A DNA stretch of 64,000 nt from Novosphingobium sp. (GTDB taxonomy: Bacteria; Pseudomonadota; Alphaproteobacteria; Sphingomonadales; Sphingomonadaceae): NCBI GenBank assembly GCA_047605225.1, contig JASGGD010000002.1, forward strand, positions 7,696 to 71,695, read 5' to 3'. Every line of letters starts with the position of its first letter. The stretch's first letter is position 1. The notes beneath the pieces were generated by a model. That model made no database searches, was not told where the DNA came from, and saw only the letters and a program-made list of their open reading frames with translations. This document shows, piece after piece, positions 3,409-17,035 of the stretch. Both the position numbers and the translations under genes were made by a program.

Positions 3409-4027
3409 CGAACTGCTCCTCGGAAAGGCGGGTGAGCCAGAAGCGGCCGTTCTCGATGCGGTATCCGATCCGCAAGGTGCCGCGGAACTTGCGGATGACG
3501 CCGCCGATGACGCGGACCTTCTCGACCGGCACGAGGATCTCGTAAGTCGTCCAGCGCACCGGCTGGTCACCCCGGATGTAGGTGGCGATCGACAGCGTCG
3601 GATTGTCGGTCAGCTCGTCGAGCACGGCGTTGAGACTGTCGCGCATGGCAGCGTAGGCCGATGGATGAACCAGTCCCAGCAGCTCCTGGAACTGCCGGTC
3701 GGCGGAATAGGCCGACCAGGTCCCCGACAGCGCGACGATGTTGCGCGTCACCGCGACGAGATAGGCCTCGGACGGCTTGCTGCCCGAGACATAGAGGTCG
3801 CCGGCAGATCCGAAGGGCACGACGATGGTGCGGGCATTCTGGTTGGTCGTGTAGATGACCGTGCCGAGGACGAGCGTGACCCCGAACATTCCGACGACCG
3901 CGACCTTGAGCAGGCGGTTCTCCTCGAAGAGATTCGCCGATCCCTGCAGGTAGCGATGGATGCCGAAACTCGCAGGTCGCCCCAGCAGGGGGTCCGGCCG
4001 CTTCGTCTTGTGTCCGATGAGCCCCAT
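3392..4027 (-). CDS. traE: TraE (VirB5/8-position) T4SS inner-membrane protein
   Basis: ORF 3392..4252. ATG 4027 gives MGLIGHKTKRP...NRLLKVAVVGMFGVTLVLGTVIY (N-terminal TM), the TraE-like size and position between traL and traK. Confidence 0.65.
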   Translation of the reverse strand: MGLIGHKTKRPDPLLGRPASFGIHRYLQGSANLFEENRLLKVAVVGMFGVTLVLGTVIYTTNQNARTIVVPFGSAGDLYVSGSKPSEAYLVAVTRNIVALSGTWSAYSADRQFQELLGLVHPSAYAAMRDSLNAVLDELTDNPTLSIATYIRGDQPVRWTTYEILVPVEKVRVIGGVIRKFRGTLRIGYRIENGRFWLTRLSEEQFDAETH

Positions 4028-4032
4028 GGTGC

Positions 4033-4299
4033 CTACTCGAAGAAGCGGGTCTGTGTCGGACCCGGATAATGCGGAAACGAGATCAGCCCCCAGCGCCAGG
4101 CGAGGTGGGGCAGGTAGCCCCGCGGCTTGGTCCGCTTCCACGGGATGAAAAGGAGAAGGGCGGCGATGAGCGCCCACCCGACAAGTCCGCCCACGATCGC
4201 GGCCACGAATATGCTCGAGGTCGCGAGCAGGAACTCGTCCGATCCGAACCACAGGATCTGGACCGGCCGATGCAGATATTGCGGAAGACGCTCGTCCAT
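4033..4299 (-). CDS. traL: TraL (VirB3-like) T4SS membrane protein
   Basis: 88 aa. LPQYLHRPVQILWF..DEF.. then a hydrophobic hairpin, the usual TraL pattern; lies directly downstream of the pilin gene. Confidence 0.7.
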   Translation of the reverse strand: MDERLPQYLHRPVQILWFGSDEFLLATSSIFVAAIVGGLVGWALIAALLLFIPWKRTKPRGYLPHLAWRWGLISFPHYPGPTQTRFFE

Positions 4300-4431
4300 C
4301 TGCCCTTCTCCTCCTGCTTCATGACACCTTGCGAAGGTGCCGGTTTCCGGGGACCGACCATCGGTCCCCAGCTCGTTGCCCGCGCGGACGGCCCTGGCAG
4401 GTCGGCCAGGAGCGCGGCCGCGAGGGATATT

Positions 4432-4746
4432 TCAGACGACCATCCCGAAGGTCTGGAGGATGGAATCCGCCTTGATGAGGCAGACGGCCGCGACGATGGT
4501 CGGGATGCCGATCATGATGTTTGAGAAGAGGCGCGAGACGCCGAACAGGAAGGCGGCGACACCGCCCACGAAGCCCAGCGGGCCCTTCACGCCCTTGTTT
4601 ACGACGATGTCGTAGATGTCGTAGCCGAGATCGCCCTGGGCCGGCGCCGAGAAGGCGTGGGCCGGACCTGCGATCAGGGCCATCACGCCCAAAGGGAGGC
4701 CGAGGTTCGCCGCCGCGAGGGCACGGCTGCCGATTTTGCGCATCAT
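4432..4746 (-). CDS. traA: F-type propilin TraA
   Basis: Lower part of ORF 4432..4992. MMRKIGSRALAAANLGLPLGVMALIAGPAHA leader, then a roughly 70-aa mature part with two hydrophobic helices. First gene of the traA-L-E-K-B-V-C order. Confidence 0.65.
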   Translation of the reverse strand: MMRKIGSRALAAANLGLPLGVMALIAGPAHAFSAPAQGDLGYDIYDIVVNKGVKGPLGFVGGVAAFLFGVSRLFSNIMIGIPTIVAAVCLIKADSILQTFGMVV

Positions 4747-4942
4747 GGTATTGCTCCTTTGCACTGCGAAGCCGTCCGCACATTCGCCTGCCGGCATCGA
4801 CGATGATCGGTGTCGGCCGGGGCGTCGGTGGACGGCTCCATGAGCCCGTCGCCGCCGGCATCTCGGTTTATTGTCCCGGCCGCGATCGGCCATGGGCCAA
4901 TGCCCTCGCAATCGGTGGGCGGGCCTTCGCGCGTGGGAAAGC

Positions 4943-5851
4943 TTAGCGCGGCGCCTCGCCGCCTGAAGCTTTCGCGAATTTCGGCTTGGCATGCCGGTCG
5001 AGGAAAGCCTCGAGCTCAGCCTGCTGAAACCCGGAGATGAGCTTGCCGTCGGCGATCAGCGTCGGGGTTCCCGAAACGCCGACCCGGGCGACCAGTTCGG
5101 AATCTTCGGCGACCTTGGCGTGTCCGGCCGCGCATTGCCGCAGCGGGGCAGGTGCCTGCCCCGAATAGGTGGCCTTGAAAGCCGCTTCGCGATCGGGCGA
5201 ACACAGGATGTGTTCCGCCTTGGCGGCGGCGGCCGGATGAATGCCGCTGACGAAGAAGATAAGCCGCCTGACGGATTTTCCTTCCATCGCTTTCGCGTTC
5301 CAGAACCGGTCGAGCGCCTGGCAGAAGCCGCAATCGGGATCGGTGAATTCGATCACCGTCGGAGCATCGATGGGACCGATTGCCAGCGCCTTGGCGGGAT
5401 CGATCGCCTTGAGGCGGCGGGCTGTGCCTTGCTCCTGCGCCAGTGCGGTCAGATTGACGCCGTTGCGATCGTAGACCGTGGCAAACAGCAGGTGTTCGCT
5501 TCGCGGCGCAAAATAGATGATCTTTCCCCCGGCGCTGGCCTGATAGATCGGGCCTTCGACCGGCGCCGGGCCGAAATCCTCGAAGCGCAAATTGGTGAAC
5601 GTCTGGTGGAGCTGCTGCTCGGCGCTGGCCTGGGCATCGGCCAGAAGCGTGGCGGGTTCACTGCCGTGCGCGGGGCTGATCGAAACGAGGGCCATCAGCG
5701 CTGCGCCGGTGAGCCCTCCAACTGCAGTGCGCGTTCGGTGCCGCCCGCGTAACTCCACCCTCGATAAGACGGTCCTTGGTATGGCGCACCAGCTTTGTAC
5801 GTCGGCTCGCTTCCCGTGCCTGGGTGCGCAAGGTTGTGCGCTTCTGGTCAT
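4943..5851 (-). CDS. DsbC/TrbB-like periplasmic thiol:disulfide interchange protein
   Basis: ORF 4943..5887. Thioredoxin-fold active site FTDPDCGFCQAL (CxxC) and the signal-like stretch AVGGLTGAALMALVSISPAHG. Start uncertain (ATG 5851 chosen). Confidence 0.6.
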   Translation of the reverse strand: MTRSAQPCAPRHGKRADVQSWCAIPRTVLSRVELRGRHRTRTAVGGLTGAALMALVSISPAHGSEPATLLADAQASAEQQLHQTFTNLRFEDFGPAPVEGPIYQASAGGKIIYFAPRSEHLLFATVYDRNGVNLTALAQEQGTARRLKAIDPAKALAIGPIDAPTVIEFTDPDCGFCQALDRFWNAKAMEGKSVRRLIFFVSGIHPAAAAKAEHILCSPDREAAFKATYSGQAPAPLRQCAAGHAKVAEDSELVARVGVSGTPTLIADGKLISGFQQAELEAFLDRHAKPKFAKASGGEAPR

Positions 5852-6186
5852 CACCAATTCACGATGATTGTGGAACATTGGACCCATGCCTCCTTCTTCC
5901 GCCGCGCCGAGCCGGCGCGACGGTGTTTGTCACGCGGTTCGGGCAGGGAGCGTGGTTATGGGCTGCGCTCGCCGTCACCGTGATGATCGGATGGATGAAG
6001 GATGAAGCGAGGAAATCACCGCCGCAACGAGCAGGGCACTGAGGTACCGTATCGGAAGTACACCGCCGAAATCGGCATCCCAGTGCCGGAAATGGTGCTT
6101 TCTCCGGCTGTTTTCCCCGTCTTGCCTGTGGGAGCGCGGGTCACTGAGGGCTGTTCGGCGGGCGACTCGGGCGAGAGAGCGACGGT

Positions 6187-6609
6187 ATGAGGACTTCCAG
6201 GACCTACAAACTGCAACTCTCGGGGAAGGGGGTGGACGCGTTCCTCGCCTGTCACTGCCGGCTCGCACGCATGACCCGCGAATTCATTCCCTATGGCATG
6301 ACACTCTATGTCGCCATGAACATACTCGATGCCAGCGATCCGGCCGACGTCGCCGCCGAACTGGAATCGCGTAGTTGCGAAGAACTGGGCGGTACCTCGC
6401 GTCGCTTCGTCGGTACGACCTCGCTCCTTGCCGAACTCGTCGAACGTACAGGCAGGCGTCTTGCCGAGAGTGGGCAATACGGGCGGCCGATCGCAACGTG
6501 GCGACTGTACAATGCGGGGCTGAGCCTTTTTCTCAGCCTCGAGATAAGCGAATTGCAGAAGATCTATGCCAGAGCATCCGAGAATCTTAAGGTCAGAGGA
6601 GTGCGATAG
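6187..6609 (+). CDS. hypothetical protein (weak call)
   Basis: 140-aa ORF whose composition looks more protein-like than the overlapping minus ORF 6016..6651. GC-rich third positions by eye; no motif recognised. Confidence 0.3.
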   Translation: MRTSRTYKLQLSGKGVDAFLACHCRLARMTREFIPYGMTLYVAMNILDASDPADVAAELESRSCEELGGTSRRFVGTTSLLAELVERTGRRLAESGQYGRPIATWRLYNAGLSLFLSLEISELQKIYARASENLKVRGVR

Positions 6610-6637
6610 AAAACCTACAGCCGGATAGTCGGTCGGT

Positions 6638-6657
6638 AATACTTTCACCATGAAAGC
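6638..6657. promoter_or_regulatory. 20-bp palindromic operator candidate, copy 1 (AATACTTTCACCATGAAAGC)
   Basis: Exact 20-mer also present at 7899..7918. Core CTTTCA-cca-TGAAAG is an inverted repeat. Lies about 90 bp upstream of the XRE-GntR gene pair. Confidence 0.55.
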
Positions 6658-6745
6658 ATTACTGTTTGACCCAAGGTGTCATCAACAACACTCTTGGGAT
6701 CAGGGCTGCGCGGGAGCTTGAGCCATTGGCAAGGGAGACCTGGTC

Positions 6746-7183
6746 ATGACGCTTCGGGCGATATCCAACGCACGCGATCCTTCCGTGCTTGCGACGATCA
6801 AGCTGATGTCGGGGAGGCGCATCGAAATGAAGCGACGCATCGAGAAGATCACGCAGGAACGCTTTGCCGCCGAGGTCGGCATCGGATCGCGCTGGCTGCG
6901 CGAGATCGAGGCCGGCAATCCCAAGTCGCGGCTCGACGACCATTTTCGCTGCGCCCATGCGCTCGGGCTTTCGACCGGACATCTCGTCATACCTCTGTTG
7001 TTCATGGAACATCAGCGGGTGTTTCCACGCGGGCTGCTCGAAGGGGACCTGTCGGGACTCGAAACCGTCTGCATCGATGCCATAGCCCGGCACAATCTCG
7101 ACCAGCTCTCGCGCCAACTCCTTGCAAGTGACGGCAGGCATGTGGCGGGCGGGGTCACAGACACACCCGAAAGGCACGACTGA
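6746..7183 (+). CDS. XRE-family helix-turn-helix transcriptional regulator
   Basis: 145 aa; ITQERFAAEVGIGSRWLREIEAGNPKSRLDDHFRCAHALGL is a classic HTH_XRE segment. AGGGAG RBS 9 nt upstream of the ATG. Confidence 0.75.
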   Translation: MTLRAISNARDPSVLATIKLMSGRRIEMKRRIEKITQERFAAEVGIGSRWLREIEAGNPKSRLDDHFRCAHALGLSTGHLVIPLLFMEHQRVFPRGLLEGDLSGLETVCIDAIARHNLDQLSRQLLASDGRHVAGGVTDTPERHD

Positions 7184-7186
7184 ACG

Positions 7187-7837
7187 ATGATGTCGCCGGG
7201 CGCCCGCCAGCACGAAAAGGTCTATGCCGAGCTCAAGCAGGATTTGCTGTCGAGGGGCTACACGGCGGGCCGGGACTTGTCGGTGATGGAACTGGCGACT
7301 TGCATCGGAACCAGCGTGTCGCCGGTTCGCGACGCATTGCACCGTCTATATGGCGAAGGTCTGCTGGAGATGGGCGACCGGCGCGGATTTCGCGTCAGGA
7401 AGTGGAGCCCCGAAGCCTTGCGCGATTGCTATACCTGGCACGGCCATCTGATCCGCATGGCGCTCAAGGCCGGTGGCACTGCGAGGCTCGATGGCCTTGC
7501 AGTCGATGGCTGGTCCATCGATTGCGGGGCAATCGATTGTGGGCCGCCCGATCGTATCGTCGCTGCGGCCGAACACATGTTTCTTCGCATCGCGCGTATG
7601 TCGGGATCGGACGAACTCGTCGCCGCCGTCCGTAACGCGGGCGAACGTTTGCGGGCGGTACGATTCGTCGAGGCCGAGCGCTGGCCCGACTGCGGCGAAG
7701 AACTCGCCGCCGCCAATGCATTGGCGGCATCGGGCTCTGTTCGCGCACTTCTCGCGGCACTCTGGAACTATCACCGGCGCCGTATTCGCGCAGCGCGAGT
7801 ACTGTGCGAGGCAATACGACGGTCCACACCGGACTGA
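7187..7837 (+). CDS. GntR-family transcriptional regulator
   Basis: 216 aa; N-terminal winged HTH VYAELKQDLLSRGYTAGRDLSVMELATCIGTSVSPVRDALHRLYGEGLL. Starts 4 nt after the XRE stop, so a likely operon. Confidence 0.8.
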   Translation: MMSPGARQHEKVYAELKQDLLSRGYTAGRDLSVMELATCIGTSVSPVRDALHRLYGEGLLEMGDRRGFRVRKWSPEALRDCYTWHGHLIRMALKAGGTARLDGLAVDGWSIDCGAIDCGPPDRIVAAAEHMFLRIARMSGSDELVAAVRNAGERLRAVRFVEAERWPDCGEELAAANALAASGSVRALLAALWNYHRRRIRAARVLCEAIRRSTPD

Positions 7838-7898
7838 TTTATGACGGTTATGCACCGGGTCACAGCACTCTGCGTTCGTTACAACCTCGCAGCGCATG

Positions 7899-7918
7899 AA
7901 TACTTTCACCATGAAAGC
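7899..7918. promoter_or_regulatory. 20-bp palindromic operator candidate, copy 2 (AATACTTTCACCATGAAAGC)
   Basis: Identical to 6638..6657. Sits 80 bp upstream of the lasso precursor ATG and overlaps a possible TTACAA-N16-TACTTT promoter (7879..7906). Confidence 0.55.
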
Positions 7919-7997
7919 GTATGGGGCTGAATATATCGCCTTCCGGCCATAGCCTTCCTGTCGCCACAAACCGCGTGGCACACAGAAGGAGGCAATT

Positions 7998-8132
7998 ATG
8001 GAACGCGAACATGAAGCCGCCGATGACGGTGTGGTCGAACTGGGCATCGCCAGCGAGGTCACGCATGGTACCGGCCAGCTGCGGATCGACAACCCGCAGG
8101 GCCAGCCGGTATTCGGCATCCTCGACGACTGA
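7998..8132 (+). CDS. lasso peptide precursor (A gene), 44 aa
   Basis: Too short for the supplied ORF track. AAGGAGG at 7986-7992, ATG 7998, TGA 8130-8132. Translation MEREHEAADDGVVELGIASEVTHGTGQLRIDNPQGQPVFGILDD. Thr at -2 before Gly1 (T-H|G) and Asp at core position 8. Lies immediately upstream of the B and C maturation genes. Confidence 0.85.
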   Translation: MEREHEAADDGVVELGIASEVTHGTGQLRIDNPQGQPVFGILDD

Positions 8133-8142
8133 GCGCTGACCG

Positions 8143-8178
8143 GCCTGGCCCGGGCATTGCGTCCGGGCCAGGCTTTTT
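8143..8178 (+). terminator. intrinsic hairpin terminator/attenuator between lasso A and B genes
   Basis: GCCTGGCCCGG (8143-8153) pairs perfectly with CCGGGCCAGGC (8163-8173). The loop is 9 nt, followed by TTTTT (8174-8178). Starts 10 nt after the precursor stop and ends 13 nt before the B-gene ATG. Confidence 0.75.
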
Positions 8179-8191
8179 CGAGGAGCTGACC

Positions 8192-8866
8192 ATGGCCTTC
8201 GTCATCCCTCGAAATAGAGTGGGCCTTTACGACTGTGGGGACCGCATCATCGCCCTCGACATCGATCGCGACCGCTATCTTGAACTGAAACCGGAACTCG
8301 CTGCGCTGGCACGTCGCGGCGCTAGGAGCCTGGATCTGGAGCCATCGCAGACGGACGCATTGATGCAATCCGGACTGTTCGGCGCTTCGGAGCGGCCTTG
8401 TTCCTGGGATTGCGCCGGTGTGACTGGTGCGGAACGGTCCATCGTCGGCAACGAGCATCCATGCGTTCTCGGGGTTCGGTTCGCCGTCCAATACGTCGTT
8501 TCGGCGGCATGGCTGGCCTTCTTCCATTTGAGCGTCGGGCGCTGCAGGCTGCGGACCCTGGTGGACATTGCCAACGCACCTGCGCGGGCCGCAAGTCTGC
8601 GCGAAGAGCCCCATTCTCCGCAGCTGATGACGTGCCTGTCGGCTTTTTGCCGTGCGGCCCTTCTGTTTCCGCGCGCATCCCGGTGCCTGCGCGATGCGCT
8701 GGCGTTGCAGCGTCTGGTGACCCGGTATGCGGTTCGATCGAAAATCGTGTTCGGCGTGCAGACGGACCCCTTTCAGGCGCACTGCTGGGTCCAGCTGGAC
8801 GGGACCGTCCTGGGCCAAAGTCTGGAGACCGTTGCGGGATTTCGCGCGATCCTCGCCCTGCCATGA
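8192..8866 (+). CDS. lasso peptide biosynthesis B protein (fused RRE/PqqD-like N-domain plus transglutaminase-like leader peptidase)
   Basis: 224 aa. C-terminal ..ASRCLRDALALQRLVTRYAVRSKIVFGVQTDPFQAHCWVQLDG.. carries the Cys/His/Asp arrangement of McjB-type proteases. GAGGAG RBS. Confidence 0.85.
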   Translation: MAFVIPRNRVGLYDCGDRIIALDIDRDRYLELKPELAALARRGARSLDLEPSQTDALMQSGLFGASERPCSWDCAGVTGAERSIVGNEHPCVLGVRFAVQYVVSAAWLAFFHLSVGRCRLRTLVDIANAPARAASLREEPHSPQLMTCLSAFCRAALLFPRASRCLRDALALQRLVTRYAVRSKIVFGVQTDPFQAHCWVQLDGTVLGQSLETVAGFRAILALP

Positions 8867-10587
8867 GCAAGTGCCATGAGCACGACGCCATGAATACGAC
8901 ATATTCGATCTCGGTGGAGATCGCGCCCCGGGCGCCTCGCGAGGCGGCGCCGGGTGGGCGCTTCTGCGAGGAATTCTCGCACAGTGCGGACCTGCGCGCC
9001 GAATATCTCTGCCGGGGTAGCCTGGTCGTCATCGGCGACGCGTTTCATCTCGATCGACTGCGGCCCGGGCTTGCATCGGAAGATACCGCAGCGCGGCCTT
9101 TGGACGCATTGAGCACCATTGCGCGCGCATGCTGGGGGCGTTTTGTTGCTGTCGCGAAGGATCCGGAGACGGGGGAGGTTGCCGTTTATCGCGATCCGTC
9201 CGGGATGGTGCCATGCTACTTCGGCCGTTCGCGCTCGCAGGTCGCCATCGCGACCGACGCCGTATCGATATGCAGGCATCTGGTTATGCAGCCTTCGATC
9301 GACTGGGGCGGCATTGCCAATCATCTGCTCGCCCCGGATCGACGGCGGCGCGAGACATGCCTGGCCGGGATCAGGGAAATTCTTCCAGGCGAACTGGTTC
9401 ACATCACCCCGGATGACGCCCGCCATGACCTGCTCTGGAAGCCCGGGCATCATGTGGGAACGAGGCTGAACATCCCTTTCGTCGAAGCCGCTGAGCTTCT
9501 GGAGGGCCATTTTTCGGAAGCGGTCGCCGTGTGGTGCGAGCGATATCCGCGCCCGCTCATCGCGCTGTCGGGTGGTTTCGATTCTTCCGCGATAACCGCG
9601 CTGGCGGCGCGGTGCGGGCCGGTCGGGCTGATCCAGTACTTCGGGAAATCCCCGCAGGCAGATGAGCGCAGCTATGCGCGGGCGGTTGCAAGGCATCTGG
9701 GGCTCGAACTCGATGCGGTCTTTTGCGACCCCGGACAAGTTCAGGTTGACTGGAATCTCTCGGCGGCGCGGCCCCGACCATCGGCCCGGGCGTTTACGCA
9801 AAGCTTCGATAGGCACGCGGCCGACAAAGCCGCAGTACTTGGCGCAACCGCGCATTTCAATGGCGGGGGCGGCGACAATGTTTTCGGGAAATTGCACTCG
9901 GCCTACCCTCTGGCCGATCGCTATCTCCATTCAGGCCTGTCCCGAGATCTGTCCGGCACCGCCGCTGACATATGCCATGCGACAGGAGCATCGTTGCCCG
10001 CAGTGCTTCGGCAGGCGATGGCCGCTGTGCGCACCCCGGATCGTGGCAAATCATGGCCGGATACGGCGGACCTCTTGTCGGCCAGGGCCATCGCGATGCG
10101 CGACGACGAGCCACATCCCTGGATCGCTACGCAAACACCGCTCTGGCCGGGACAAAGGCAGCTCATCAGGAATATCGCTCGCGCGACCGCGGCCACCGAT
10201 CACCTCCACATCGAGGGCGCATTGCCGACGATCTTCCCGATCCTTTCGCAGCCGCTTGTGGAACTGTGCCTCTCCTTGCCTACCTGGGTCTGGCTCACCG
10301 GCGGCCAGGATCGGGCCCTGGCCCGAGCCGCCATGAAACCGTACCTTCCTGCGGACATTCTGGGCCGCAGGCTGAAGGGCGCGTTCGACGGTCTGGTATA
10401 CGAGATCGTCGATCTCCATCGTGCTCGGATATTGGCAGACCTCAGGGATGGAGCCCTGGCCGGCGAGGCGCTTATCGACGTGGATGCGGTCGAGCACGTC
10501 CTCAAGGCCCACGGTGGCAAGGAAGCCGGGATCATTCGCGTCCTTCACCTTCACGAGGTCGAGATGTGGTGCCGTCACTGGTCCTGA
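8863..10587 (+). CDS. lasso peptide cyclase (asparagine synthetase-like C protein)
   Basis: In-frame ATG 8863 within ORF 8398..10587 overlaps the B stop (ATGA). PP-loop motif LIALSGGFDSSAITALA; size 574 aa, typical of McjC homologues. Confidence 0.85.
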   Translation: MSKCHEHDAMNTTYSISVEIAPRAPREAAPGGRFCEEFSHSADLRAEYLCRGSLVVIGDAFHLDRLRPGLASEDTAARPLDALSTIARACWGRFVAVAKDPETGEVAVYRDPSGMVPCYFGRSRSQVAIATDAVSICRHLVMQPSIDWGGIANHLLAPDRRRRETCLAGIREILPGELVHITPDDARHDLLWKPGHHVGTRLNIPFVEAAELLEGHFSEAVAVWCERYPRPLIALSGGFDSSAITALAARCGPVGLIQYFGKSPQADERSYARAVARHLGLELDAVFCDPGQVQVDWNLSAARPRPSARAFTQSFDRHAADKAAVLGATAHFNGGGGDNVFGKLHSAYPLADRYLHSGLSRDLSGTAADICHATGASLPAVLRQAMAAVRTPDRGKSWPDTADLLSARAIAMRDDEPHPWIATQTPLWPGQRQLIRNIARATAATDHLHIEGALPTIFPILSQPLVELCLSLPTWVWLTGGQDRALARAAMKPYLPADILGRRLKGAFDGLVYEIVDLHRARILADLRDGALAGEALIDVDAVEHVLKAHGGKEAGIIRVLHLHEVEMWCRHWS

Positions 10588-12608
10588 AGGTGTTCCTTTA
10601 GCCAGGCGAGGTTACGGCCATAGACGGCCGACCGATGGGCCGGATGAAGCTTCATGTGACCCTCGTCGGGATAGACATACATCTGGATCGGCCAACCTTT
10701 GCGATGAAGGTCGCGATAGGTCGCAAGCCCCATGCGAAACTCGCTCGATGCTGCCTGAACGAGTATCGGAACCTTCCTTGCGTCCGGGGCATCCACGAGC
10801 GAATTCACCCGCCAGAATTCCGGTCCGGCCGCGCGGGTCGCGGGGTAGCCCATCGCAACGTAGAACTCGTCCAGCGCCAGACCGCTGGCCTCCTGCGCGG
10901 GCTCGCTTTCGCAGCATGTGCTGAGAATGGCACCGGAGAACAGGGATGAATTCGCCAGGGCGAAGGTGGCGGTCACGGCCCCGTCGCTCTGCCCGGTAAT
11001 GGCGACCCTGTCGGGGTCGATGATGCCTTCCCGGTTCAGCCGCTCGATGATCGTTTTCAACGATGAGAGGTTGCTCCGGCGGTCGGCGAAGTCCTCGTTG
11101 TTGAGGGCATAGAACTCCGCGTCCGTTCTGGGGTGGCGGCTCAGCCCGTACCAGGGAGGCCTGTTGAAGCTGAGAACGGCGAGCCCTTGCGCGGCCATCG
11201 CCTGGATCGGATATTCGTCGCCGGTGCCCCCTCGCAGGAAGCCTCGCGTTTCGTACTGGACGACCACGAGCGGGAGGCGCGGTCCCGGCGTCCAGCCGGG
11301 CGGCAGCACCAGATCGGCATACGTGTCCAGGCTGTAATCATTCGTCCAGGCAAGCCGCCGAATGCTGCCCAGTTGCAGCGAGGAGAAGGCCGGGTTCGGA
11401 TTGAAGATTTCGCGTCGCTTCCCCGTGCGTGTATCCAGCGCGATGATCGTTCTGGGATGAGCGGACGTTTCCTGCGCGCACAACAGATCGGACCCGGACG
11501 GTGCGCATCCGAACAGCGCGTCCGTCGTTTCGAGCATGCGTTGCGGCGGCGTCGGGCCGACTGCCCAGGAATAGAACTGCGTCAGGCTTCGCGCCACGCC
11601 TGACCGCCGCTGAAAGATGAGGCGTTTCCCGTCTGGCGTCCACCATAGGCCGGTTACATCCCTGCAGGACGCGAAAGGGCAGGTGATTTCTCCGCTCCGT
11701 TGCGATCGGACCCGGACCTCGGTCACGGCATCGAGCGCCGTGCTTTGCGGAACGGCCCAGGCGATGCGCGTTCCGCCGCGAGCCGTCGCTGTCGCCGTGG
11801 CGCCGCTGGGCCATATGCGCGACGTGTGAAGCGCGGTTTCATCCGTTGGCGCCAATGCAAACTCGGCGCCGCTTTCCGCATCGAGCGCGCGATCGACCTT
11901 GGGAATATCCGATCGCGGCATGGGCCTGTCGCTGGACAGCGGCCAGAAGCGCTGGTCGTAGCGATAGCCATGCTCGCCTTCGGCAGCGATGGCCGCCCTC
12001 GCGGCGATCAGGCCCGGCTGACTGGTGTAAAGCAGGCGCCGACCATCGTGCGACCACGCCATTTCCAGAACATCTGCGGCGCTCGTCAGCAAACGGCGGG
12101 TCTGACGGCTCGATCGATCGTAAATCCAGATTTCGGAACGGTCGGCGAACGTCTTGGTGTAGGCGAGCCGTCCTCCATCAGGGGACCAACGAAGTATCGC
12201 GGGCTTGGGTATTCCGAGCGGAAGGTCGGTCATGCCGTATCGGGTCGAGGTGGCGGCAACGATCTCGCCGCCGTCGTCGATCACCCGGGCACGATGTGCC
12301 GCGTCCGTATCGACGAGAACGATCGCGGTGCAGTAGCGATCGTTCGCCACGTCCGCCTGGCGCAGTTGAATAGCGGCCATTGCGGTAGACGGCGACACGC
12401 TGAACGCAGCGGGATCATTCCCCAATCCGACGGCCCCGAAGTCCTGCAACGCGAGAAGATCATCCTTGGTCACCACTCGAGCCCGTTCGGGTGGTGGTGC
12501 GGTCAGAGATAAGGTGCAGGGCGCAGTATGGCCGGGCTGCGCATGCGCGGGAGGAATGGCGCACGCCAACAAGGCGCAGCCGAGAGACGCTATCGGTGAC
12601 AGGTTCAT
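10575..12608 (-). CDS. secreted S9 prolyl-oligopeptidase-family hydrolase, probable lasso peptide isopeptidase
   Basis: 677 aa. Signal peptide MNLSPIASLGCALLACAIPPAHA, beta-propeller-like N-half, C-terminal hydrolase with ITGQSDGAV (GxSxG) and YPDEGH. Locus architecture matches the remembered AtxE2-type isopeptidase clusters. Confidence 0.7.
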   Translation of the reverse strand: MNLSPIASLGCALLACAIPPAHAQPGHTAPCTLSLTAPPPERARVVTKDDLLALQDFGAVGLGNDPAAFSVSPSTAMAAIQLRQADVANDRYCTAIVLVDTDAAHRARVIDDGGEIVAATSTRYGMTDLPLGIPKPAILRWSPDGGRLAYTKTFADRSEIWIYDRSSRQTRRLLTSAADVLEMAWSHDGRRLLYTSQPGLIAARAAIAAEGEHGYRYDQRFWPLSSDRPMPRSDIPKVDRALDAESGAEFALAPTDETALHTSRIWPSGATATATARGGTRIAWAVPQSTALDAVTEVRVRSQRSGEITCPFASCRDVTGLWWTPDGKRLIFQRRSGVARSLTQFYSWAVGPTPPQRMLETTDALFGCAPSGSDLLCAQETSAHPRTIIALDTRTGKRREIFNPNPAFSSLQLGSIRRLAWTNDYSLDTYADLVLPPGWTPGPRLPLVVVQYETRGFLRGGTGDEYPIQAMAAQGLAVLSFNRPPWYGLSRHPRTDAEFYALNNEDFADRRSNLSSLKTIIERLNREGIIDPDRVAITGQSDGAVTATFALANSSLFSGAILSTCCESEPAQEASGLALDEFYVAMGYPATRAAGPEFWRVNSLVDAPDARKVPILVQAASSEFRMGLATYRDLHRKGWPIQMYVYPDEGHMKLHPAHRSAVYGRNLAWLKEHLQDQ

Positions 12609-12659: not shown

Positions 12660-15209
12660 TTACCAGTCTTTGGAGATCGTGAAGCTGACGAAGCGTCCAA
12701 CGGGCGAGGAATTGGTGGAATCGTAGCTCACGTAATAGCTGTATCCACCGCTCGGTGCCGCATAGGCCGGGTGCCGGTCGAAGGCATTCTGCACGCTGGC
12801 TTGTAATCCAAGGCCGCTCAGCAACCCTTCGCCCAGCGGGATCCGGTATCCCGCTGACAAATCCAGTGTGGTCAACGCCGCGACCTGGGCTGCGGGCAAT
12901 TGCCTGTTGTCCGAGAGTCCGGACTGATGACTGACATAGGCACCGATCGTCCACTTCGTGTCCGACCAGGCAACGCTTCCCCGGGCCCGAAAGCGAGGCG
13001 GATTGAATATGGTTCCGGCAAGCGTGATCTTTGCGGAATCTCCGGTGAAATTCTGGCTGGACCAGAGCCATGCGCCGCTCGCCGAGAACGTCAGCGAGGA
13101 TGCGGCCGTCACAGGCAGGCTGTAGTCGACCGCGAGGTCGACGCCTTGGATCGTCTGGTATGCGGCGTTCGTATAGCGGCTGTTGATGATCGCGACGATC
13201 TTGCTGGGATCATCGTCCCCGGCGAAATTGTAGAAGTAGGCAGCGTTCGACAGAACCTCCTCGATTTCGGCGAGCGTGGGCGAATAATCGACGACCGGGT
13301 CATATGCCGGATCGGCGAGCGCGGTGAACATGGCCGCGCCTGACACCGGCTGGATGATGCGGTCGCGATACCCGATATGGAAATAGCTTGCGGAGGCATG
13401 GAAACGGTCGACCGCGCGAGGGTGAAGGTCGATCGTTGCAGACCATGTGTTGGCGCGCTCCGGTTTGAGATCGGTGTTGCCGCCATAGTCGGTGAGGACG
13501 GTCGAACCGGCAGGAAAACGCTCGCCTCCCATATAGCTCGTCGAATCCAGATAGGCGCCGCGTAGCTGGTAACGCTGGTCGAGGGTTGGAGCCTTGAAGG
13601 ACTTGCCCCAACTCAGCTTGAGGTCGAAATCGGGAGAAACCCCGTACACCATCCCGAGCTTCGGCACCGCCACCGACGCCATGCCGGGATAGCGTTCGTA
13701 GCGTAGTGCCGCGCTCAGGATCAGGCGGCTGCCCACCATGGAGCCGTCCTCGGGCAGAACCAGCGGAATCTTGATTTCCGAGAAGGCGTAGGAACTGTCG
13801 ATTGATCCGCCGTAGCGGAAAGACGCGGCCGAAGGGGCATAATCGTAGCTGTTGTAGCGGTAGCCCGCGCCGACCACGACGTCGATCGGATGAGGGCCGA
13901 TCCCGCTGACGGGGCCGGTCACATACCCCTCGGGATTGACGATCCTGTTCTTGTAGTAACCGGTGGACCGGGATGACAGATTGCTTCCGCTGAGCGTCGT
14001 CTGATCGTAGTTCAGCTTGCTCTGGCCATACGTGGCGGACGCATGCGCTTCCCATCGCGATCCAAGGTCCACGCGGACCGAGGGCGTGACCGAATAGGAC
14101 GTGACATCCGGCCGGTTCACATAGGAGACGCCGTAGTCCGTGGCCTGCGATATGTACGAGCGCCGGTTGCTGTATGCAGCGTCGATGTCGAACTCGGTTG
14201 TCGATGAAATTGCCTGACGGGCGCTGGCGACGAGGCTGTCCTGGTTGACACGCGGATAAATCGTCCCGCCATCTGGCATGTAGGCAGTGTAGTCGCGGTC
14301 ACCGGAATGGATCGCGCTGTTGGCCTGGTGGCTGTAGGCGAGCATGGCGCCGCCGCTGTTCCAGGTCTTTCCGGCGACCCCGGTATATTGCTGCAGAAAG
14401 TCGCCGCCATCGGTTGCACCGCCCAGCGTGGCCGTTAGATTGGCACCGTCATAGTCGCGTTTGAGGATGACATTGACGACGCCGCCCACGGCGTCCGATC
14501 CGTAGATCGCCGATGCGCCATCGGCGACGACATCGATCCTTTCGATGCCTGCCAGCGGAATCGCGCCAATGTCGACGGCCTGCACGAAAGACCCATAGGA
14601 CAGGCGATGACCGTTCAGCAGCACCAGAGTGGCATCGCCGCCTAGGCCGCGTAAGTTGGGCGTCGAACTCGCGTCGAGGTTCTGGTTGGCGATGCCATTG
14701 GCTCCGGGCGAGACGCCGGGATTCTGTCCGCCGCTGAAATTCTGGGGCAGGGCGCGGATCGCCTCGCCGAGATCGACTTGCCCCGCGGATCGGATGTCCG
14801 AGGCGTAGAGCCTGGTGGTCGGCGAAGCGCTGTCCGCCGATTTGAGATGCGTTCCCGTCACCACGATTTCATCGGCGTTTCCCGAAGACCTCGTGCCGCT
14901 CAGAGCTCGTATGATGAGCGCGCCGTCGACGATCTCGGCGGTAAGCCGGGTGCCGCGAAGCAATCGGTTCGCGGCCTCTGTCGGAGAGAGGCGCTCCTTC
15001 AGCGCCTTGGCGGATTTTCCGCGCAGGGGATCGGCGGGGGCCGAGAACTCCAGGCCGCTCTGGCGTGCGATCGCCCGCAGCGCTTCGGTCAGCGATTGGG
15101 CGGGCAGGTCGAAATCCACGGCCCGGTCGATCTGAGCCAATACCGGCGTGCCGATTATCAATGCGCACGCGCCAACGCCTGCCAGAAATCCGTAACGAAC
15201 CGTTTGCAT
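12660..15209 (-). CDS. TonB-dependent receptor with N-terminal signalling (STN) domain, FecA-like transducer
   Basis: ORF 12660..15251. ATG 15209 gives MQTVRYGFLAGVGACALIIGTPVLAQ. STN-like FDLPAQSLTEALRAIARQSGLEFS, plug motifs, and a C-terminal ..FTISKDW aromatic terminus. Confidence 0.85.
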   Translation of the reverse strand: MQTVRYGFLAGVGACALIIGTPVLAQIDRAVDFDLPAQSLTEALRAIARQSGLEFSAPADPLRGKSAKALKERLSPTEAANRLLRGTRLTAEIVDGALIIRALSGTRSSGNADEIVVTGTHLKSADSASPTTRLYASDIRSAGQVDLGEAIRALPQNFSGGQNPGVSPGANGIANQNLDASSTPNLRGLGGDATLVLLNGHRLSYGSFVQAVDIGAIPLAGIERIDVVADGASAIYGSDAVGGVVNVILKRDYDGANLTATLGGATDGGDFLQQYTGVAGKTWNSGGAMLAYSHQANSAIHSGDRDYTAYMPDGGTIYPRVNQDSLVASARQAISSTTEFDIDAAYSNRRSYISQATDYGVSYVNRPDVTSYSVTPSVRVDLGSRWEAHASATYGQSKLNYDQTTLSGSNLSSRSTGYYKNRIVNPEGYVTGPVSGIGPHPIDVVVGAGYRYNSYDYAPSAASFRYGGSIDSSYAFSEIKIPLVLPEDGSMVGSRLILSAALRYERYPGMASVAVPKLGMVYGVSPDFDLKLSWGKSFKAPTLDQRYQLRGAYLDSTSYMGGERFPAGSTVLTDYGGNTDLKPERANTWSATIDLHPRAVDRFHASASYFHIGYRDRIIQPVSGAAMFTALADPAYDPVVDYSPTLAEIEEVLSNAAYFYNFAGDDDPSKIVAIINSRYTNAAYQTIQGVDLAVDYSLPVTAASSLTFSASGAWLWSSQNFTGDSAKITLAGTIFNPPRFRARGSVAWSDTKWTIGAYVSHQSGLSDNRQLPAAQVAALTTLDLSAGYRIPLGEGLLSGLGLQASVQNAFDRHPAYAAPSGGYSYYVSYDSTNSSPVGRFVSFTISKDW

Positions 15210-15295
15210 TCTATCCCCCACTGTCCAGTCGGCGCGTCGCGTGACGGCCATGCCAGGCTAGACGGGAGGATTTTCGGAACGAGCAATCCGGACGG

Positions 15296-16315
15296 CTATT
15301 TCTTGAGAATAATCCGATCGGGCTGTTGATCGTCGAGTGTCAGGCCAAGCGAACGGGCGAGATGCCTGGCAACGCTTTGCGAGTTGCGGATATGCAGTTC
15401 CGCACTCACGCGCATTGCGGCGATTTCAGGGGTAGCGGCGACCAGCTTGATGTCCGAATAGAGATTCACCTCCGCCAGGATCGCGGCGACCGTTTCATCA
15501 TCATAGCTTTTCACGCCAGTGACCCATTGTTCGTCGTTGCGCGGAGCGGGCTCGGCAATGGCAGCATTCCCTTGAGAAGTCGCGCCAGGGTAACGTATCC
15601 GCTGGCCGGGCTGAAGCACCTGTTGTGCGCCGTTCGCGACGTTCTTCGCACCCTGACAAGGCGGCGTTACTGCCACATGCCCTTCGTACAGCACCACGTT
15701 CATCTGACATTTGGTACGTCTCTCGACGCTGAACCGGGTGCCCAGAGCCGTGGTAGTGCCTTCATCCGTGGTGACGACGAAGGGACGGGCTTTGTCGTGG
15801 GCGACGGAGAAGACCGCGCGGCCATGATCGAGAGTGATTTCGCGGCGATTGGCGCGCATCGAAACCAGCAACCGGCTGTCGGCATCGAGCGTCACGACGG
15901 AACCATCCGACAATGCTACGCGCCGAACCTCGGTTTTCCCTGTGACCAGGACGAGCCGCATCTTGCCGTCCTCGCCGTCACGCGACGCCACTGGGGTAGC
16001 GGCCCTGAAGCTGCTGACGTTCTGACCCAGGACAATATGCGCGCCCATAAGGACTATCGCTGCGATGGAGGCCGCCATCGCGATCCTTGCCAGCTTTTGC
16101 CGGCGTCGCTGCTTCTGGCGACTGCGCACGTTTCTGGCTGCCGGATCGATATAGTTTGTCAGCGCGGCATCGGCGATTTCGAATTCCCGGCGATGTTCGG
16201 GATCCTCGGCGCACCAACGCATCGCGGCGGCATGCAGCGCTGGGGTTTCCCGGCTTTCCATGACCCACCGCCGGGCCTGCTGCTTGATGGTGAGCGGAGC
16301 ATCGTCTTCGGTCAT
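15296..16315 (-). CDS. FecR-family anti-sigma factor / transmembrane sensor
   Basis: 339 aa. One central TM (IAMAASIAAIVLMGAHIVL) and a FecR-like periplasmic domain. ATGA overlap with the upstream sigma-factor gene. Confidence 0.75.
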   Translation of the reverse strand: MTEDDAPLTIKQQARRWVMESRETPALHAAAMRWCAEDPEHRREFEIADAALTNYIDPAARNVRSRQKQRRRQKLARIAMAASIAAIVLMGAHIVLGQNVSSFRAATPVASRDGEDGKMRLVLVTGKTEVRRVALSDGSVVTLDADSRLLVSMRANRREITLDHGRAVFSVAHDKARPFVVTTDEGTTTALGTRFSVERRTKCQMNVVLYEGHVAVTPPCQGAKNVANGAQQVLQPGQRIRYPGATSQGNAAIAEPAPRNDEQWVTGVKSYDDETVAAILAEVNLYSDIKLVAATPEIAAMRVSAELHIRNSQSVARHLARSLGLTLDDQQPDRIILKK

Positions 16316-16869
16316 CGGCGTTCCATGATGTCCACGAGGTGGTCCAGCGTCTTGAAGACCTTACGTTTCACAGCCCATTCGTTGAGCCCTTTCTGCCGTC
16401 CGATCTCCCGAAAACTATAACCCTCGACGCGGCTGAGCAAAAACAATTCTCGATCGAGCGGATCGAGCCCATCGAGAACTTTTTCACAAAGGGCGATGTC
16501 TGCCCGTGCCGCCAGGATGCGCATCGGATCGATGGTAGTAGAAAGTTCGGCGGCATCGGAAAGGGGGCTTTTGAGGTGGTCCACGCGGGTCGAGGACAGG
16601 TCCGAATGGTCTCGCAGAAGATTGGTTGCGATGCGGCGTAAATAGGCTTGCGGAGAATTCAGCAACATTGCAGCGCCGCTGCGATAGAAGCGAAAAAAGG
16701 TCTCCTGCGCGAGTTCTTCCGCCTCTGCGCTGGAGACGGAATTGCGGTGAAAATAGCGTTTCAACCAACCTCGTTCCTTGAGGTAAAATTTCGCTACCGG
16801 ATCTTGATAAACATCCGGCCGCCGGGAATCCGACTCACTAAGCTTCTCAGAAATGTGCCGATTGTTCAC
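16312..16869 (-). CDS. ECF (FecI-like) RNA polymerase sigma factor
   Basis: ORF 16312..16983 starts at TTG. Preferred GTG 16869 (185 aa) lies downstream of a TATAAT box. Region 2 AEELAQETFFRFYR and region 4 LSRVEGYSFREIGRQKGLNEWAVKRKV. Start uncertain. Confidence 0.75.
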   Translation of the reverse strand: MNNRHISEKLSESDSRRPDVYQDPVAKFYLKERGWLKRYFHRNSVSSAEAEELAQETFFRFYRSGAAMLLNSPQAYLRRIATNLLRDHSDLSSTRVDHLKSPLSDAAELSTTIDPMRILAARADIALCEKVLDGLDPLDRELFLLSRVEGYSFREIGRQKGLNEWAVKRKVFKTLDHLVDIMERR

Positions 16870-16947
16870 GTCGACTGCCTCGCTCGGAGAGGCCGCGATC
16901 AATCGATGGATGCTCGCCGTCAGATTAAAATGACCCCTAATCGTATC

Positions 16948-16977
16948 ATTATAGCCGATATGGGGTGTGCTCAGCAA
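16948..16977 (-). promoter_or_regulatory. sigma70-type promoter candidate for the ECF sigma operon
   Basis: On the minus strand: TTGCTG (16977-16972), an 18-nt spacer, then a perfect TATAAT (16953-16948), in an AT-rich stretch upstream of GTG 16869. Confidence 0.45.
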
Positions 16978-17035
16978 TCGCAAATGGCACGATTAAGGGA
17001 CAGACATATCCGGCTAGGTGTCGCCATCTCTGACC

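What the first reader, a model, noticed from the sequence alone, without database searches (positions are those of the whole stretch)
7998..8132. Unlisted 44-codon gene encodes a predicted new lasso peptide (core GTGQLRIDNPQGQPVFGILDD)
A strong RBS and ATG give MEREHEAADDGVVELGIASEVTH|GTGQLRIDNPQGQPVFGILDD directly upstream of B and C maturation genes. Thr sits at -2 and Gly at position 1. Asp8 is positioned for an 8-residue macrolactam. The 13-residue tail has bulky Gln13/Phe16 as plug candidates. From memory, syanodin I (GISGGTVDAPAGQGLAGILDD) shares about 10 of 21 positions, including the GILDD end. This would therefore be a related but different compound. My hand-calculated neutral monoisotopic mass for the dehydrated 21-mer is about 2221.11 Da ([M+2H]2+ near 1111.56); recompute before use.
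Basis: partly seen in the sequence, partly recalled or inferred. Interest (0 to 1): 0.75.

Follow-up and report, generated by a model that had tools for sequence, protein, structure and literature searches.

The report
Uncharacterised syanodin-like lasso peptide gene
The 44-codon gene is real and encodes the precursor of an uncharacterised lasso peptide of the known syanodin/benenodin family, inside a textbook "isopeptidase-type" gene cluster of a Novosphingobium strain, so it is a new member of a well-known kind and not a surprise.

Summary
Window 7998-8132 (+) encodes MEREHEAADDGVVELGIASEVTH|GTGQLRIDNPQGQPVFGILDD behind an AAGGAGG ribosome-binding site. It scores above the curated cut-offs of Pfam PF24178 (subterisin) and NCBIfam NF033522 (benenodin family).

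It sits in the canonical alphaproteobacterial isopeptidase-type lasso cluster: GntR regulator, precursor A, a hairpin, protease B, cyclase C, then on the opposite strand an AtxE2-family isopeptidase, a TonB-dependent receptor, FecR and an ECF sigma factor.

Thr-2, Gly1 and Asp8 are present. Across 15 relatives plus the recalled syanodin core, G1, D8, P10, G17 and L19 never vary, which supports a Gly1-Asp8 eight-residue ring.

The dehydrated 21-mer is 2221.1127 Da ([M+2H]2+ 1111.5637). The recalled syanodin I core is found exactly in Sphingobium yanoikuyae genomes and shares 10 of 21 positions.

This core appears in no searchable paper or PDB chain, and the nearest other cores match 18/21. However, the identical precursor is already in NCBI nr (N. 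resinovorum CP128491.1), and 43 cores of this 21-mer subfamily are public.

Verdict: a new member of a known kind, of modest interest. One oddity: the A gene is 100% identical in DNA between strains whose flanking genes differ at 28-41% of synonymous sites.

The parts
7187..7837 (+). GntR-family transcriptional regulator directly upstream of the precursor gene
   Evidence: Pfam GntR PF00392, E 3e-15. A GntR gene before the precursor is part of the constant architecture of isopeptidase-type clusters (review PMC9266682).
7904..7936 (+). Upstream sequence blocks (TTTCACCATGAAAGC and GCTGAATATAT) conserved across divergent clusters; candidate promoter or operator
   Evidence: These blocks are invariant in the 4-locus alignment A3, although the precursors are only 55-59% identical. 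The sigma-70 consensus scan found no promoter, so their function is inferred.
7962..7980 (+). Inverted repeat CGCCAC-N7-GTGGCA just upstream of the ribosome-binding site; candidate operator or 5'-UTR hairpin
   Evidence: The arms are conserved in L001, L009 and L010 (CGCCAC...GTGGCG). Its function is inferred.
7986..7992 (+). Ribosome-binding site AAGGAGG, 5 nt before the ATG
   Evidence: Read directly from the sequence. Conserved in L001-L010.
7998..8066 (+). Leader peptide MEREHEAADDGVVELGIASEVTH (23 aa) with the ELG-x-AS-xx-T motif and Thr at -2
   Evidence: Translation. L15, G16, A18, S19 and T22 are nearly invariant in alignment A2.
8067..8132 (+). Core peptide GTGQLRIDNPQGQPVFGILDD (21 aa) plus stop codon; predicted Gly1-Asp8 macrolactam
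   Evidence: Translation. G1, D8, P10, G17 and L19 are invariant in A2. Asp8 is the only acidic residue at positions 7-9. Mass is 2221.1127 Da.
8142..8178 (+). GC-rich 14-bp stem-loop followed by a short U run, between A and B (terminator or attenuator-like)
   Evidence: RNA fold -34 to -37 kcal/mol, z about -2.9. L009 and L010 carry equally strong hairpins of different sequence at the same place (z -3.6 and -3.8). Removing such a hairpin was used to raise astexin-1 yield (table in PMC7549694).
8192..8866 (+). Lasso B protein: N-terminal leader-binding (RRE-like) domain fused to a transglutaminase-like Cys protease
   Evidence: Pfam Transglut_core3, E 5e-20; NCBIfam lasso_biosyn_B2, 71 bits against a cut-off of 33. 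Cys165 and His197 are invariant in A4. The AF2 model has pLDDT 86.9. Its N-terminal part resembles TbiB1 bound to leader (5v1u, prob 0.98) and lasso B1 (6jx3, prob 0.92), but no hit reaches E<=0.001.
8863..10587 (+). Lasso C protein: Asn-synthetase-like, ATP-dependent macrolactam cyclase (alternative start at 8890)
   Evidence: Pfam Asn_synthase, E 1.5e-27. PP-loop SGGFDS at residues 236-241. The nearest PDB chain is beta-lactam synthetase 1jgt. The ATGA overlap with the B stop is visible in the sequence. N. resinovorum's gene call starts 9 codons later.
10575..12608 (-). AtxE2-family lasso peptide isopeptidase (S9 serine hydrolase with an N-terminal hydrophobic extension)
   Evidence: NCBIfam NF033523 equivalog, 694 bits against a cut-off of 400. 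PDB AtxE2 5txc, E 3.8e-103. GQSDG motif with Ser541.
12660..15251 (-). TonB-dependent receptor with an N-terminal STN signalling extension
   Evidence: Pfam Plug and TonB_dep_Rec_b-barrel; the STN match (25.2 bits) is below the Pfam cut-off of 28.4.
15296..16315 (-). FecR-type anti-sigma factor
   Evidence: Pfam FecR, E 1.5e-21, and DUF4880.
16312..16983 (-). ECF (FecI-like) sigma factor; the true start is probably downstream of the TTG given by the ORF list
   Evidence: Pfam Sigma70_r2 and Sigma70_r4_2. The equivalent ORF in L009 is 187 aa.

Best explanation
The gene at 7998-8132 is the precursor gene (A) of a class II lasso peptide of the syanodin-like subfamily, which has a 21-residue core with G1, D8, P10 and a G-I-L-D-D end. 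The host is a Novosphingobium strain close to N. resinovorum. Shown here: the ORF, its ribosome-binding site, its family membership, and an intact gene set comprising GntR, A, a hairpin, B and C, with an isopeptidase, a TonB receptor, FecR and an ECF sigma factor on the opposite strand. Inferred from established knowledge of lasso biosynthesis: the N-terminal domain of B binds the leader through the ELG-x-AS-xx-T motif. The Cys165/His197 protease domain of B then cuts after His(-1), using Thr(-2) as the recognition residue. C adenylates the Asp8 side chain and joins it to the Gly1 amine around the pre-folded tail. The product would be a threaded peptide with an 8-residue ring and a 13-residue loop plus tail, of 2221.11 Da. 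The hairpin after A probably sets a high ratio of A transcript to B and C transcript. There is no ABC exporter. As proposed for this clade, the peptide would be sensed or imported by the cognate TonB-dependent transducer, which signals through FecR and the ECF sigma factor, and then linearised by the isopeptidase. The biological role of this whole clade is still unknown.
For: ORF and translation. HMM scores above curated cut-offs: PF24178 at 35.8 against 27, and NF033522 at 40.3 against 33. B2 domain, Asn-synthase cyclase, AtxE2 equivalog at 694 bits, TonB receptor, FecR, ECF sigma and GntR. This architecture matches the 'almost constant' layout described for all isopeptidase clusters (PMC9266682; PMC11006600). 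G1, D8, P10, G17 and L19 are invariant and T(-2) is nearly invariant across 16 aligned sequences. 76 of 82 unique cores in the wider set carry an acidic residue at position 8. Catalytic residues are present: B Cys165 and His197, the C PP-loop, and the isopeptidase GQSDG motif. The B model's N-terminus resembles lasso B1 proteins bound to leader. The A-B hairpin is conserved in structure but not in sequence. The same precursor occurs on 19 contigs in the same gene context.
Against: No expression or chemical data exist. Threading, plug residues and thermal stability cannot be predicted here. Sequence HMMs do not detect the RRE domain of B, and the fold matches are weak (E 0.07-0.24). C scores well below the curated cut-offs of the specific lasso-cyclase NCBIfam models, reaching only the general Asn_synthase Pfam. 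C-terminal trimming, reported to my knowledge for some relatives expressed in E. coli, could change the observed mass. No exporter is present, so the site of action is unknown.
Confidence: 0.9

Rival explanations
1. The cluster is genuine, but the mature product differs from the predicted 21-mer. It could be C-terminally truncated, lacking one or both Asp residues, or it could accumulate only as an unthreaded branched-cyclic peptide.
For: The characterised relative syanodin I is listed as neither heat-stable nor carboxypeptidase-Y-resistant (table in PMC7549694). From my own knowledge, truncated forms are known for astexin-type peptides made in E. coli. The tail is rich in small residues (G, P, N).
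Against: The G-I-L-D-D end is strongly conserved, with 28 of 82 unique cores ending exactly in GILDD, which argues that it is part of the functional molecule. The syanodin I core, as I recall it, runs to the last residue of its precursor (P0103). This tail carries bulkier residues (Q11, Q13, F16) than syanodin's.
Confidence: 0.2
2. The ORF is a conserved but silent or decaying remnant, and no peptide is made in the native host.
For: B and GntR are diverging quickly between strains (82-83% amino-acid identity). The B/C junction differs between strains: 224 and 574 aa in the window against 229 and 565 aa in N. resinovorum. No sigma-70-like promoter was found.
Against: All reading frames are intact with catalytic residues present. 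dN/dS is 0.12-0.29 for all cluster genes, which indicates purifying selection. The A gene, its ribosome-binding site and the upstream blocks are perfectly or highly conserved.
Confidence: 0.07
3. The ORF is a chance reading frame in GC-rich DNA and not a gene.
For: Many short ORFs overlap this region on both strands.
Against: The ORF gives family HMM hits above curated thresholds. It has a canonical ribosome-binding site. Homologues lie at the same position in more than 90 sequence clusters. Synteny with B, C and the isopeptidase is kept in L001-L010.
Confidence: 0.01

Closest known systems
Syanodin I (Sphingobium yanoikuyae XLDN2-5; Hegemann et al. 2013, core sequence from my own knowledge, found exactly in S. 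yanoikuyae precursor P0103)
   Same: Both have a 21-residue core with Gly1, Asp8, Pro10, Gly12-Gln13 and the G-I-L-D-D end. The leaders share the ELG-xx-S-xx-T motif, and the precursors are the same length (44 aa). Both belong to the same HMM family, and the S. yanoikuyae B protein is a 41%-identical homologue.
   Different: Only 10 of 21 core positions are identical. The ring interior is TGQLRI here and ISGGTV in syanodin I. The tail here carries Gln11 and Phe16, where syanodin has Ala11 and Ala16. It is a different compound.
Predicted, uncharacterised precursor of Sphingobium sp. SYK-6 (WP_269453875.1, P0003) and metagenomic P0005
   Same: 80-89% identical over the 44-aa precursor, with 18/21 core identity and the same RIDNPQGQP centre.
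   Different: Core positions 2, 15 and 18 (SYK-6) or 2, 15 and 20 (P0005) differ. The SYK-6 B protein is only 49% identical. Neither peptide has been characterised.
Benenodin-1 (NCBIfam NF033522) and subterisin (Pfam PF24178), the namesakes of the precursor families
   Same: The precursor scores above the curated cut-off of both models. All come from isopeptidase-type alphaproteobacterial clusters (PMC9266682).
   Different: The match is at family level only. From my own knowledge their cores (benenodin-1 19 aa, subterisin 17 aa) differ in length and sequence. I did not align them here.
Astexin-2/-3 cluster with the AtxE2 isopeptidase (Asticcacaulis excentricus)
   Same: The cluster layout is the same: GntR, A, B and C facing an isopeptidase, a TonB receptor and a sigma/anti-sigma pair, with no ABC exporter. 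The isopeptidase aligns to the AtxE2 structure 5txc at E 3.8e-103.
   Different: The core peptide is unrelated. From my own knowledge the astexins have 9-residue rings, whereas an 8-residue ring is predicted here. Isopeptidases cut only their cognate peptides.
Sphingocin cluster of Sphingomonas sp. BPH (PMC11006600)
   Same: It is another sphingomonad cluster of A, B and C with a divergent isopeptidase and TonB receptor, and it has a benenodin-family precursor. It is the only report linking such a cluster to a phenotype: loss of phenanthrene use after Tn5 insertion in B.
   Different: Its core is different (GPGFINNDGVGGKLPFAGLSDD, 22 aa). No such phenotype has been tested for this locus.

Membership tests
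Lasso peptide precursor, benenodin/subterisin family (NF033522 / PF24178) | Score above the curated cut-off of the family HMMs | tested here: met
   NF033522 scores 40.3 bits against a cut-off of 33, and PF24178 scores 35.8 bits against 27. Both matches are full length.
Lasso peptide precursor, benenodin/subterisin family (NF033522 / PF24178) | Thr at the penultimate leader position and Gly at core position 1 | tested here: met
   The junction reads ...EVTH|GTG.... T(-2) is nearly invariant and G1 is invariant in A2.
Lasso peptide precursor, benenodin/subterisin family (NF033522 / PF24178) | Asp or Glu at core position 7, 8 or 9 to accept the isopeptide bond | tested here: met
   Asp8 is the only acidic residue in the 7-9 range. 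D8 is invariant in A2. All 82 unique cores in the wider set have an acidic residue at 7-9, and 76 of them have one at position 8.
Lasso peptide precursor, benenodin/subterisin family (NF033522 / PF24178) | Macrolactam actually formed and tail threaded through the ring | not testable with these tools
   This needs MS/MS, carboxypeptidase, thermal or isopeptidase assays, or NMR.
Minimal lasso biosynthetic gene cluster | Leader peptidase B with a transglutaminase-like Cys protease domain | tested here: met
   lasso_biosyn_B2 scores 71 bits against a cut-off of 33, and Transglut_core3 gives E 5e-20. Cys165 and His197 are invariant.
Minimal lasso biosynthetic gene cluster | Leader-binding RRE (PqqD-like, B1) domain | tested here: inconclusive
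   Pfam and NCBIfam give no hit on residues 1-100. The AF2 model (pLDDT 86.9) shows a beta-sheet plus helices. Foldseek finds TbiB1 with leader (prob 0.98, TMt 0.44, E 0.07) and lasso B1 6jx3 (prob 0.92, TMt 0.48, E 0.24). The LDxDRDRY motif is conserved.
Minimal lasso biosynthetic gene cluster | Asn-synthetase-like ATP-dependent cyclase C | tested here: met
   Asn_synthase scores 97.6 bits against a cut-off of 21. The SGGFDS PP-loop is present. The specific macrolactam-cyclase NCBIfam models match only below their cut-offs: 113 against 300, and 55 against 525.
Isopeptidase-type (AtxE2-clade) lasso cluster | AtxE2-family isopeptidase adjacent to the cluster | tested here: met
   NF033523 equivalog at 694 bits against a cut-off of 400. 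AtxE2 5txc at E 3.8e-103. GQSDG nucleophile motif present.
Isopeptidase-type (AtxE2-clade) lasso cluster | GntR gene before A; TonB-dependent receptor and a sigma/anti-sigma pair after the isopeptidase; no ABC exporter | tested here: met
   Searches identify these genes. No ABC-transporter gene lies between 7187 and 16983. The layout is as described in PMC9266682.
Isopeptidase-type (AtxE2-clade) lasso cluster | The isopeptidase linearises only the threaded cognate peptide | not testable with these tools
   This needs an enzyme assay.
Identity with the published compound syanodin I | Same core sequence | tested here: not met
   10 of 21 positions are identical. This is a relative of syanodin I, not the same compound.

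The most novel reading that the evidence does not exclude
The peptide is not an antibiotic. It is a self-made ligand of a cell-surface signalling loop carried as cargo on a conjugative element. In this reading the threaded peptide is recognised by the cognate TonB-dependent transducer, which activates the ECF sigma factor through FecR. The peptide is then imported and destroyed by the isopeptidase. The perfect DNA-level conservation of the A gene amid fast-diverging neighbours would reflect selection on, or recombinational exchange of, the ligand 'allele'. This locus and its syntenic variants in N. resinovorum Shazo N and N. barchaimii LL02 would then form a natural allelic series for testing the long-unknown function of isopeptidase-clade lasso peptides.
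Probability: 0.25. Interest if true: 0.6.

Novelty: new member of a known kind. Interest (0 to 1): 0.3.

Why it matters
The locus adds one more predicted, chemically uncharacterised core to a family of lasso peptides whose biological role is still described as enigmatic (PMC9266682). Its practical value is as a heterologous-expression target. The core is a close analogue of syanodin I with bulkier tail residues, so it could help study what sets thermal stability and isopeptidase recognition. The setting next to an F-type transfer module, with syntenic but strongly diverged precursors in related strains, could also help study how these clusters diversify. None of this would surprise a specialist.

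Tried and rejected
- **Literature.** Full-text searches for the core, for sub-strings of it, for the syanodin core and for 'GILDD' with 'lasso peptide' found nothing relevant. Searches for 'lasso peptide' with SYK-6 or with Novosphingobium found only incidental mentions. The primary papers were not held in the library: Chekan 2016, Maksimov 2015, Zong 2017, the 2025 syanodin I unthreading paper and Barrett & Mitchell 2024.
- **Solved structures.** The core matches no PDB chain, and B has no sequence-level PDB relative.
- **Plasmids.** The plasmid collection has no near match to 7000-12700.
- **Genome scan.** The genome-contig scan returned only two distant syntenic loci and not the source genome. 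I therefore inferred the organism from cluster members named N. resinovorum and Novosphingobium sp. HR1a.
- **Regulatory and RNA scans.** The promoter/terminator scan found no sigma-70 promoter. It also missed the A-B hairpin, because its U run has only four U's after the stem. Rfam gave no hit anywhere in the window.
- **RRE domain of B.** It could not be shown by HMMs.
- **Second precursor.** A six-frame motif search found none in the window.
- **52-aa precursor versions** (MWRQKEAN-MERE...). I rejected these as upstream start-codon artefacts, because the extension is a read-through of the ribosome-binding-site region.

Full report
**Observation.** Window 7998-8132 (+) is an ATG-initiated 44-codon ORF. 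It translates to MEREHEAADDGVVELGIASEVTHGTGQLRIDNPQGQPVFGILDD. AAGGAGG lies at 7986-7992, five bases before the ATG. The ORF is followed by a 224-aa gene (8192-8866). A 574-aa gene follows, whose ATG at 8863 overlaps the preceding stop as ATGA.

**More than chance.** The region is GC-rich and full of overlapping short ORFs, so an ORF alone means little. This one, however, scores above the curated cut-offs of two independent precursor families. Pfam PF24178 'lasso peptide subterisin' gives 35.8 bits against a cut-off of 27. NCBIfam NF033522 'benenodin family lasso peptide' gives 40.3 bits against a cut-off of 33. Both matches run over the full length. A word-indexed search of 5.8 billion proteins found the identical protein and three close clusters. 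An exhaustive profile search of 1.84 billion representatives found nine further short precursors, plus five long proteins matched only in short stretches. A profile search with 15 family members plus the recalled syanodin core found 94 sequence clusters, all carrying PF24178.

**The cluster.**
- Upstream lies a GntR regulator (7187-7837).
- The 224-aa protein is a lasso B protein. It hits Transglut_core3 at E 5e-20 and NCBIfam lasso_biosyn_B2 at 71 bits against a cut-off of 33.
- The 574-aa protein is an Asn-synthetase-like enzyme. Asn_synthase scores 97.6 bits, the SGGFDS PP-loop is present, and the closest solved relative is beta-lactam synthetase.
- On the opposite strand, converging on C, is a 677-aa AtxE2-family lasso isopeptidase. 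The NF033523 equivalog scores 694 bits against a cut-off of 400. The AtxE2 structure 5txc aligns at E 3.8e-103, and the GQSDG nucleophile motif is present.
- Next come a TonB-dependent receptor with Plug, barrel and a sub-threshold STN extension, then a FecR anti-sigma factor, then an ECF sigma factor.

A review states that all isopeptidase-containing clusters share exactly this 'almost constant' layout. It has GntR before the precursor, and a TonB-dependent transporter plus a sigma/anti-sigma pair after the isopeptidase, usually with no ABC exporter (PMC9266682). The sphingocin cluster paper describes the same arrangement (PMC11006600). No ABC exporter lies between 7187 and 16983. A six-frame motif search found only one precursor in the window.

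**Anatomy of the peptide.** An alignment of 15 precursors plus the syanodin core (A2) shows nearly invariant leader residues L, G, A, S and T(-2). In the core, G1, D8, P10, G17 and L19 are invariant. In a wider set of 82 unique cores, 63 have an acidic residue only at position 8 within the 7-9 range that lasso rings allow. 53 of the 82 cores are 21 residues long, and 28 end in GILDD. In the window's core, Asp8 is the only acidic residue in that range. A Gly1-Asp8 eight-residue ring with a 13-residue loop and tail is therefore the only reasonable prediction. The dehydrated 21-mer has a monoisotopic mass of 2221.1127 Da, with [M+2H]2+ at 1111.5637. This confirms the hand calculation.

**The maturation enzymes look functional.** In an alignment of 17 B homologues, Cys165 and His197 are invariant, as is an N-terminal LDxxxDRY motif. 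HMMs do not detect an RRE domain in residues 1-100. An AlphaFold model from that alignment (pLDDT 86.9) shows an N-terminal beta-sheet followed by helices. Foldseek against the PDB returns lasso B1 proteins bound to their leaders among the top hits: TbiB1 5v1u at probability 0.98, and 6jx3 at probability 0.92 with TM 0.48 on the target. Transglutaminase-like cysteine proteases also appear. No hit reaches E 0.001. I count the RRE as likely but not demonstrated. All cluster genes show dN/dS of 0.12-0.29 against the N. resinovorum copy, which is purifying selection and not decay.

**Regulatory features.** A 14-bp GC-rich stem-loop (8142-8174) followed by a short U run lies between A and B. It folds at -34 to -37 kcal/mol with z about -2.9. 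The syntenic loci L009 and L010 have equally strong hairpins of different sequence at the same place (z -3.6 and -3.8). The structure is therefore conserved and the sequence is not. Such hairpins are known in lasso clusters, and removing one was used to raise astexin-1 yield (table in PMC7549694). The likely role is partial termination that keeps the A transcript in excess over B and C, which is an inference. Upstream of A, three elements are conserved among loci whose precursors are only 55-59% identical: the blocks TTTCACCATGAAAGC and GCTGAATATAT, and an inverted repeat CGCCAC-N7-GTGGC(G/A). They are candidate promoter or operator elements. The sigma-70 scan found nothing.

**Origin.** The identical precursor is encoded on 19 contigs. 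These include NCBI CP128491.1 (GCA_030369695.1, 2.25 Mb) and several SRA-derived assemblies, always in the same gene context. Members of the TonB-receptor cluster are named Novosphingobium resinovorum and Novosphingobium sp. HR1a. The window's own record is a 78,252-bp NCBI contig. The window is about 92% identical in DNA to CP128491.1 over 16 kb, so it comes from a related but distinct strain. Its B protein is unique in the database, with the nearest relative at 83% identity.

**Comparison with known compounds.** It does occur exactly in precursors annotated from Sphingobium yanoikuyae (P0103 and others), which corroborates the recollection. It shares 10 of 21 positions with the window's core: G1, D8, P10, G12, Q13 and the last five residues. 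Syanodin I is listed as produced in E. coli at 5.2 mg/L, and as neither heat-stable nor carboxypeptidase-resistant (PMC7549694). The nearest sequences overall are uncharacterised. These are Sphingobium sp. SYK-6 WP_269453875.1 and a metagenomic variant, both at 18/21. No paper in the library and no PDB chain contains this core. The peptide is thus a new, uncharacterised member of a known subfamily. At least 43 distinct 21-residue cores with D8 and P10 are already in public data, and NCBI's pipeline names many of them 'benenodin family lasso peptide'.

**Function.** The biosynthetic steps follow from established knowledge of lasso B and C enzymes. The steps are leader binding, cleavage after His(-1), adenylation of Asp8, and ring closure around the tail. 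The downstream half of the cluster suggests the model proposed for this clade, in which the peptide is recognised or imported by the TonB-dependent transducer and linearised by the isopeptidase. Published proposals include siderophore-like cargo delivery and control of peptide concentration, but the role is still called enigmatic. One transposon study links a related cluster to phenanthrene use in a sphingomonad. Nothing here tests function.

**An unexplained detail.** Between the window and CP128491.1, the stretch 7997-8139 does not differ at a single base. That stretch covers the whole A gene. The flanking genes differ at 41% (GntR), 28% (B) and 32-33% (two upstream ORFs) of synonymous sites. 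With 31 synonymous sites in A, the chance of no change is about 4e-5 even at the lowest flanking rate. Either a short recombination tract has homogenised A, or its nucleotide sequence is itself under selection. I could not decide between these.

**Verdict.** The finding is a routine genome-mining hit in a well-described family, so interest is modest.

Noticed in passing
window 7997-8139, compared with L001 (CP128491.1) and L002-L008: The whole A gene is 100% identical in DNA between strains. The flanking genes differ at 28-41% of synonymous sites (GntR pS 0.41, B pS 0.28) and are 82-83% identical in protein. With 31 synonymous sites and no change, P is about 4e-5 or lower. The cause could be a recombination patch or selection on the nucleotide sequence.
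   Followed up: partly
window 1-5900, and L009/L010 at 1962-7643: The lasso cluster lies directly beside an F-type conjugative transfer module (TraC, TraV, TraK, TraE, TraL, TrbI-like, DsbC). The same tra genes, at 78-84% DNA identity, flank syntenic lasso clusters in N. resinovorum Shazo N and N. barchaimii LL02. Their precursors are only 59% and 55% identical. The cluster therefore looks like variable cargo of a conserved mobile element or megareplicon.
   Followed up: partly
window 18054-21559 (-): A short prokaryotic Argonaute defence operon. The ORF at 18054-19610 hits PADLOC pAgo class I at 718 bits. The ORF at 19607-21559 hits TIR-APAZ at 1107 bits (943 bits on the REase-TIR-APAZ model), with Pfam TIR_2 and a sub-significance Mrr_cat match. 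It resembles a SPARTA-type system with an added Mrr-like nuclease domain.
   Followed up: partly
window 25193-34458: More defence-island-like genes. These are a 964-aa protein with a C-terminal SEC-C motif and a weak LmuA-like N-terminus (25193-28087, -), a PDC-S06 candidate defence ATPase at 480 bits (29984-32650, +), and a DUF6880 protein (32743-34458, +).
   Followed up: no
not in the window: proteins P0054-P0060 and P0063: ORFs of 72-79 aa that carry two complete leader-plus-core units in one reading frame, for example ...ELGVASVETH|GTPRGEGEFLGHD-VALGIASEETQ|GIPVGTDEFFGMNADNGISDR. They could be tandem-fused lasso precursors, or adjacent precursor genes that have lost the stop codon between them.
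   Followed up: no
window 8863-8892, and L001 8884-8895: The B/C junction differs between strains. In the window, B is 224 aa and C can start at an ATGA overlap (8863). In N. resinovorum, B is 5 aa longer and C is called from the downstream Met that corresponds to window 8890. The true start of C is therefore uncertain.
   Followed up: partly
window 12540-12608 (-), N-terminus of the isopeptidase: The isopeptidase ORF has a 45-residue extension before the family model begins. It contains a hydrophobic stretch ending in AHA-Q (MNLSPIASLGCALLACAIPPAHAQ), which looks like a secretion signal and would place the enzyme in the periplasm. No signal-peptide predictor was available to test this.
   Followed up: no
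window 40487-47028: Two large HWE-type histidine kinases, both with PAS domains. One of them (40487-43915, +) is a hybrid protein that also carries GAF, HisKA and receiver domains, followed by a second HWE kinase module.
   Followed up: no
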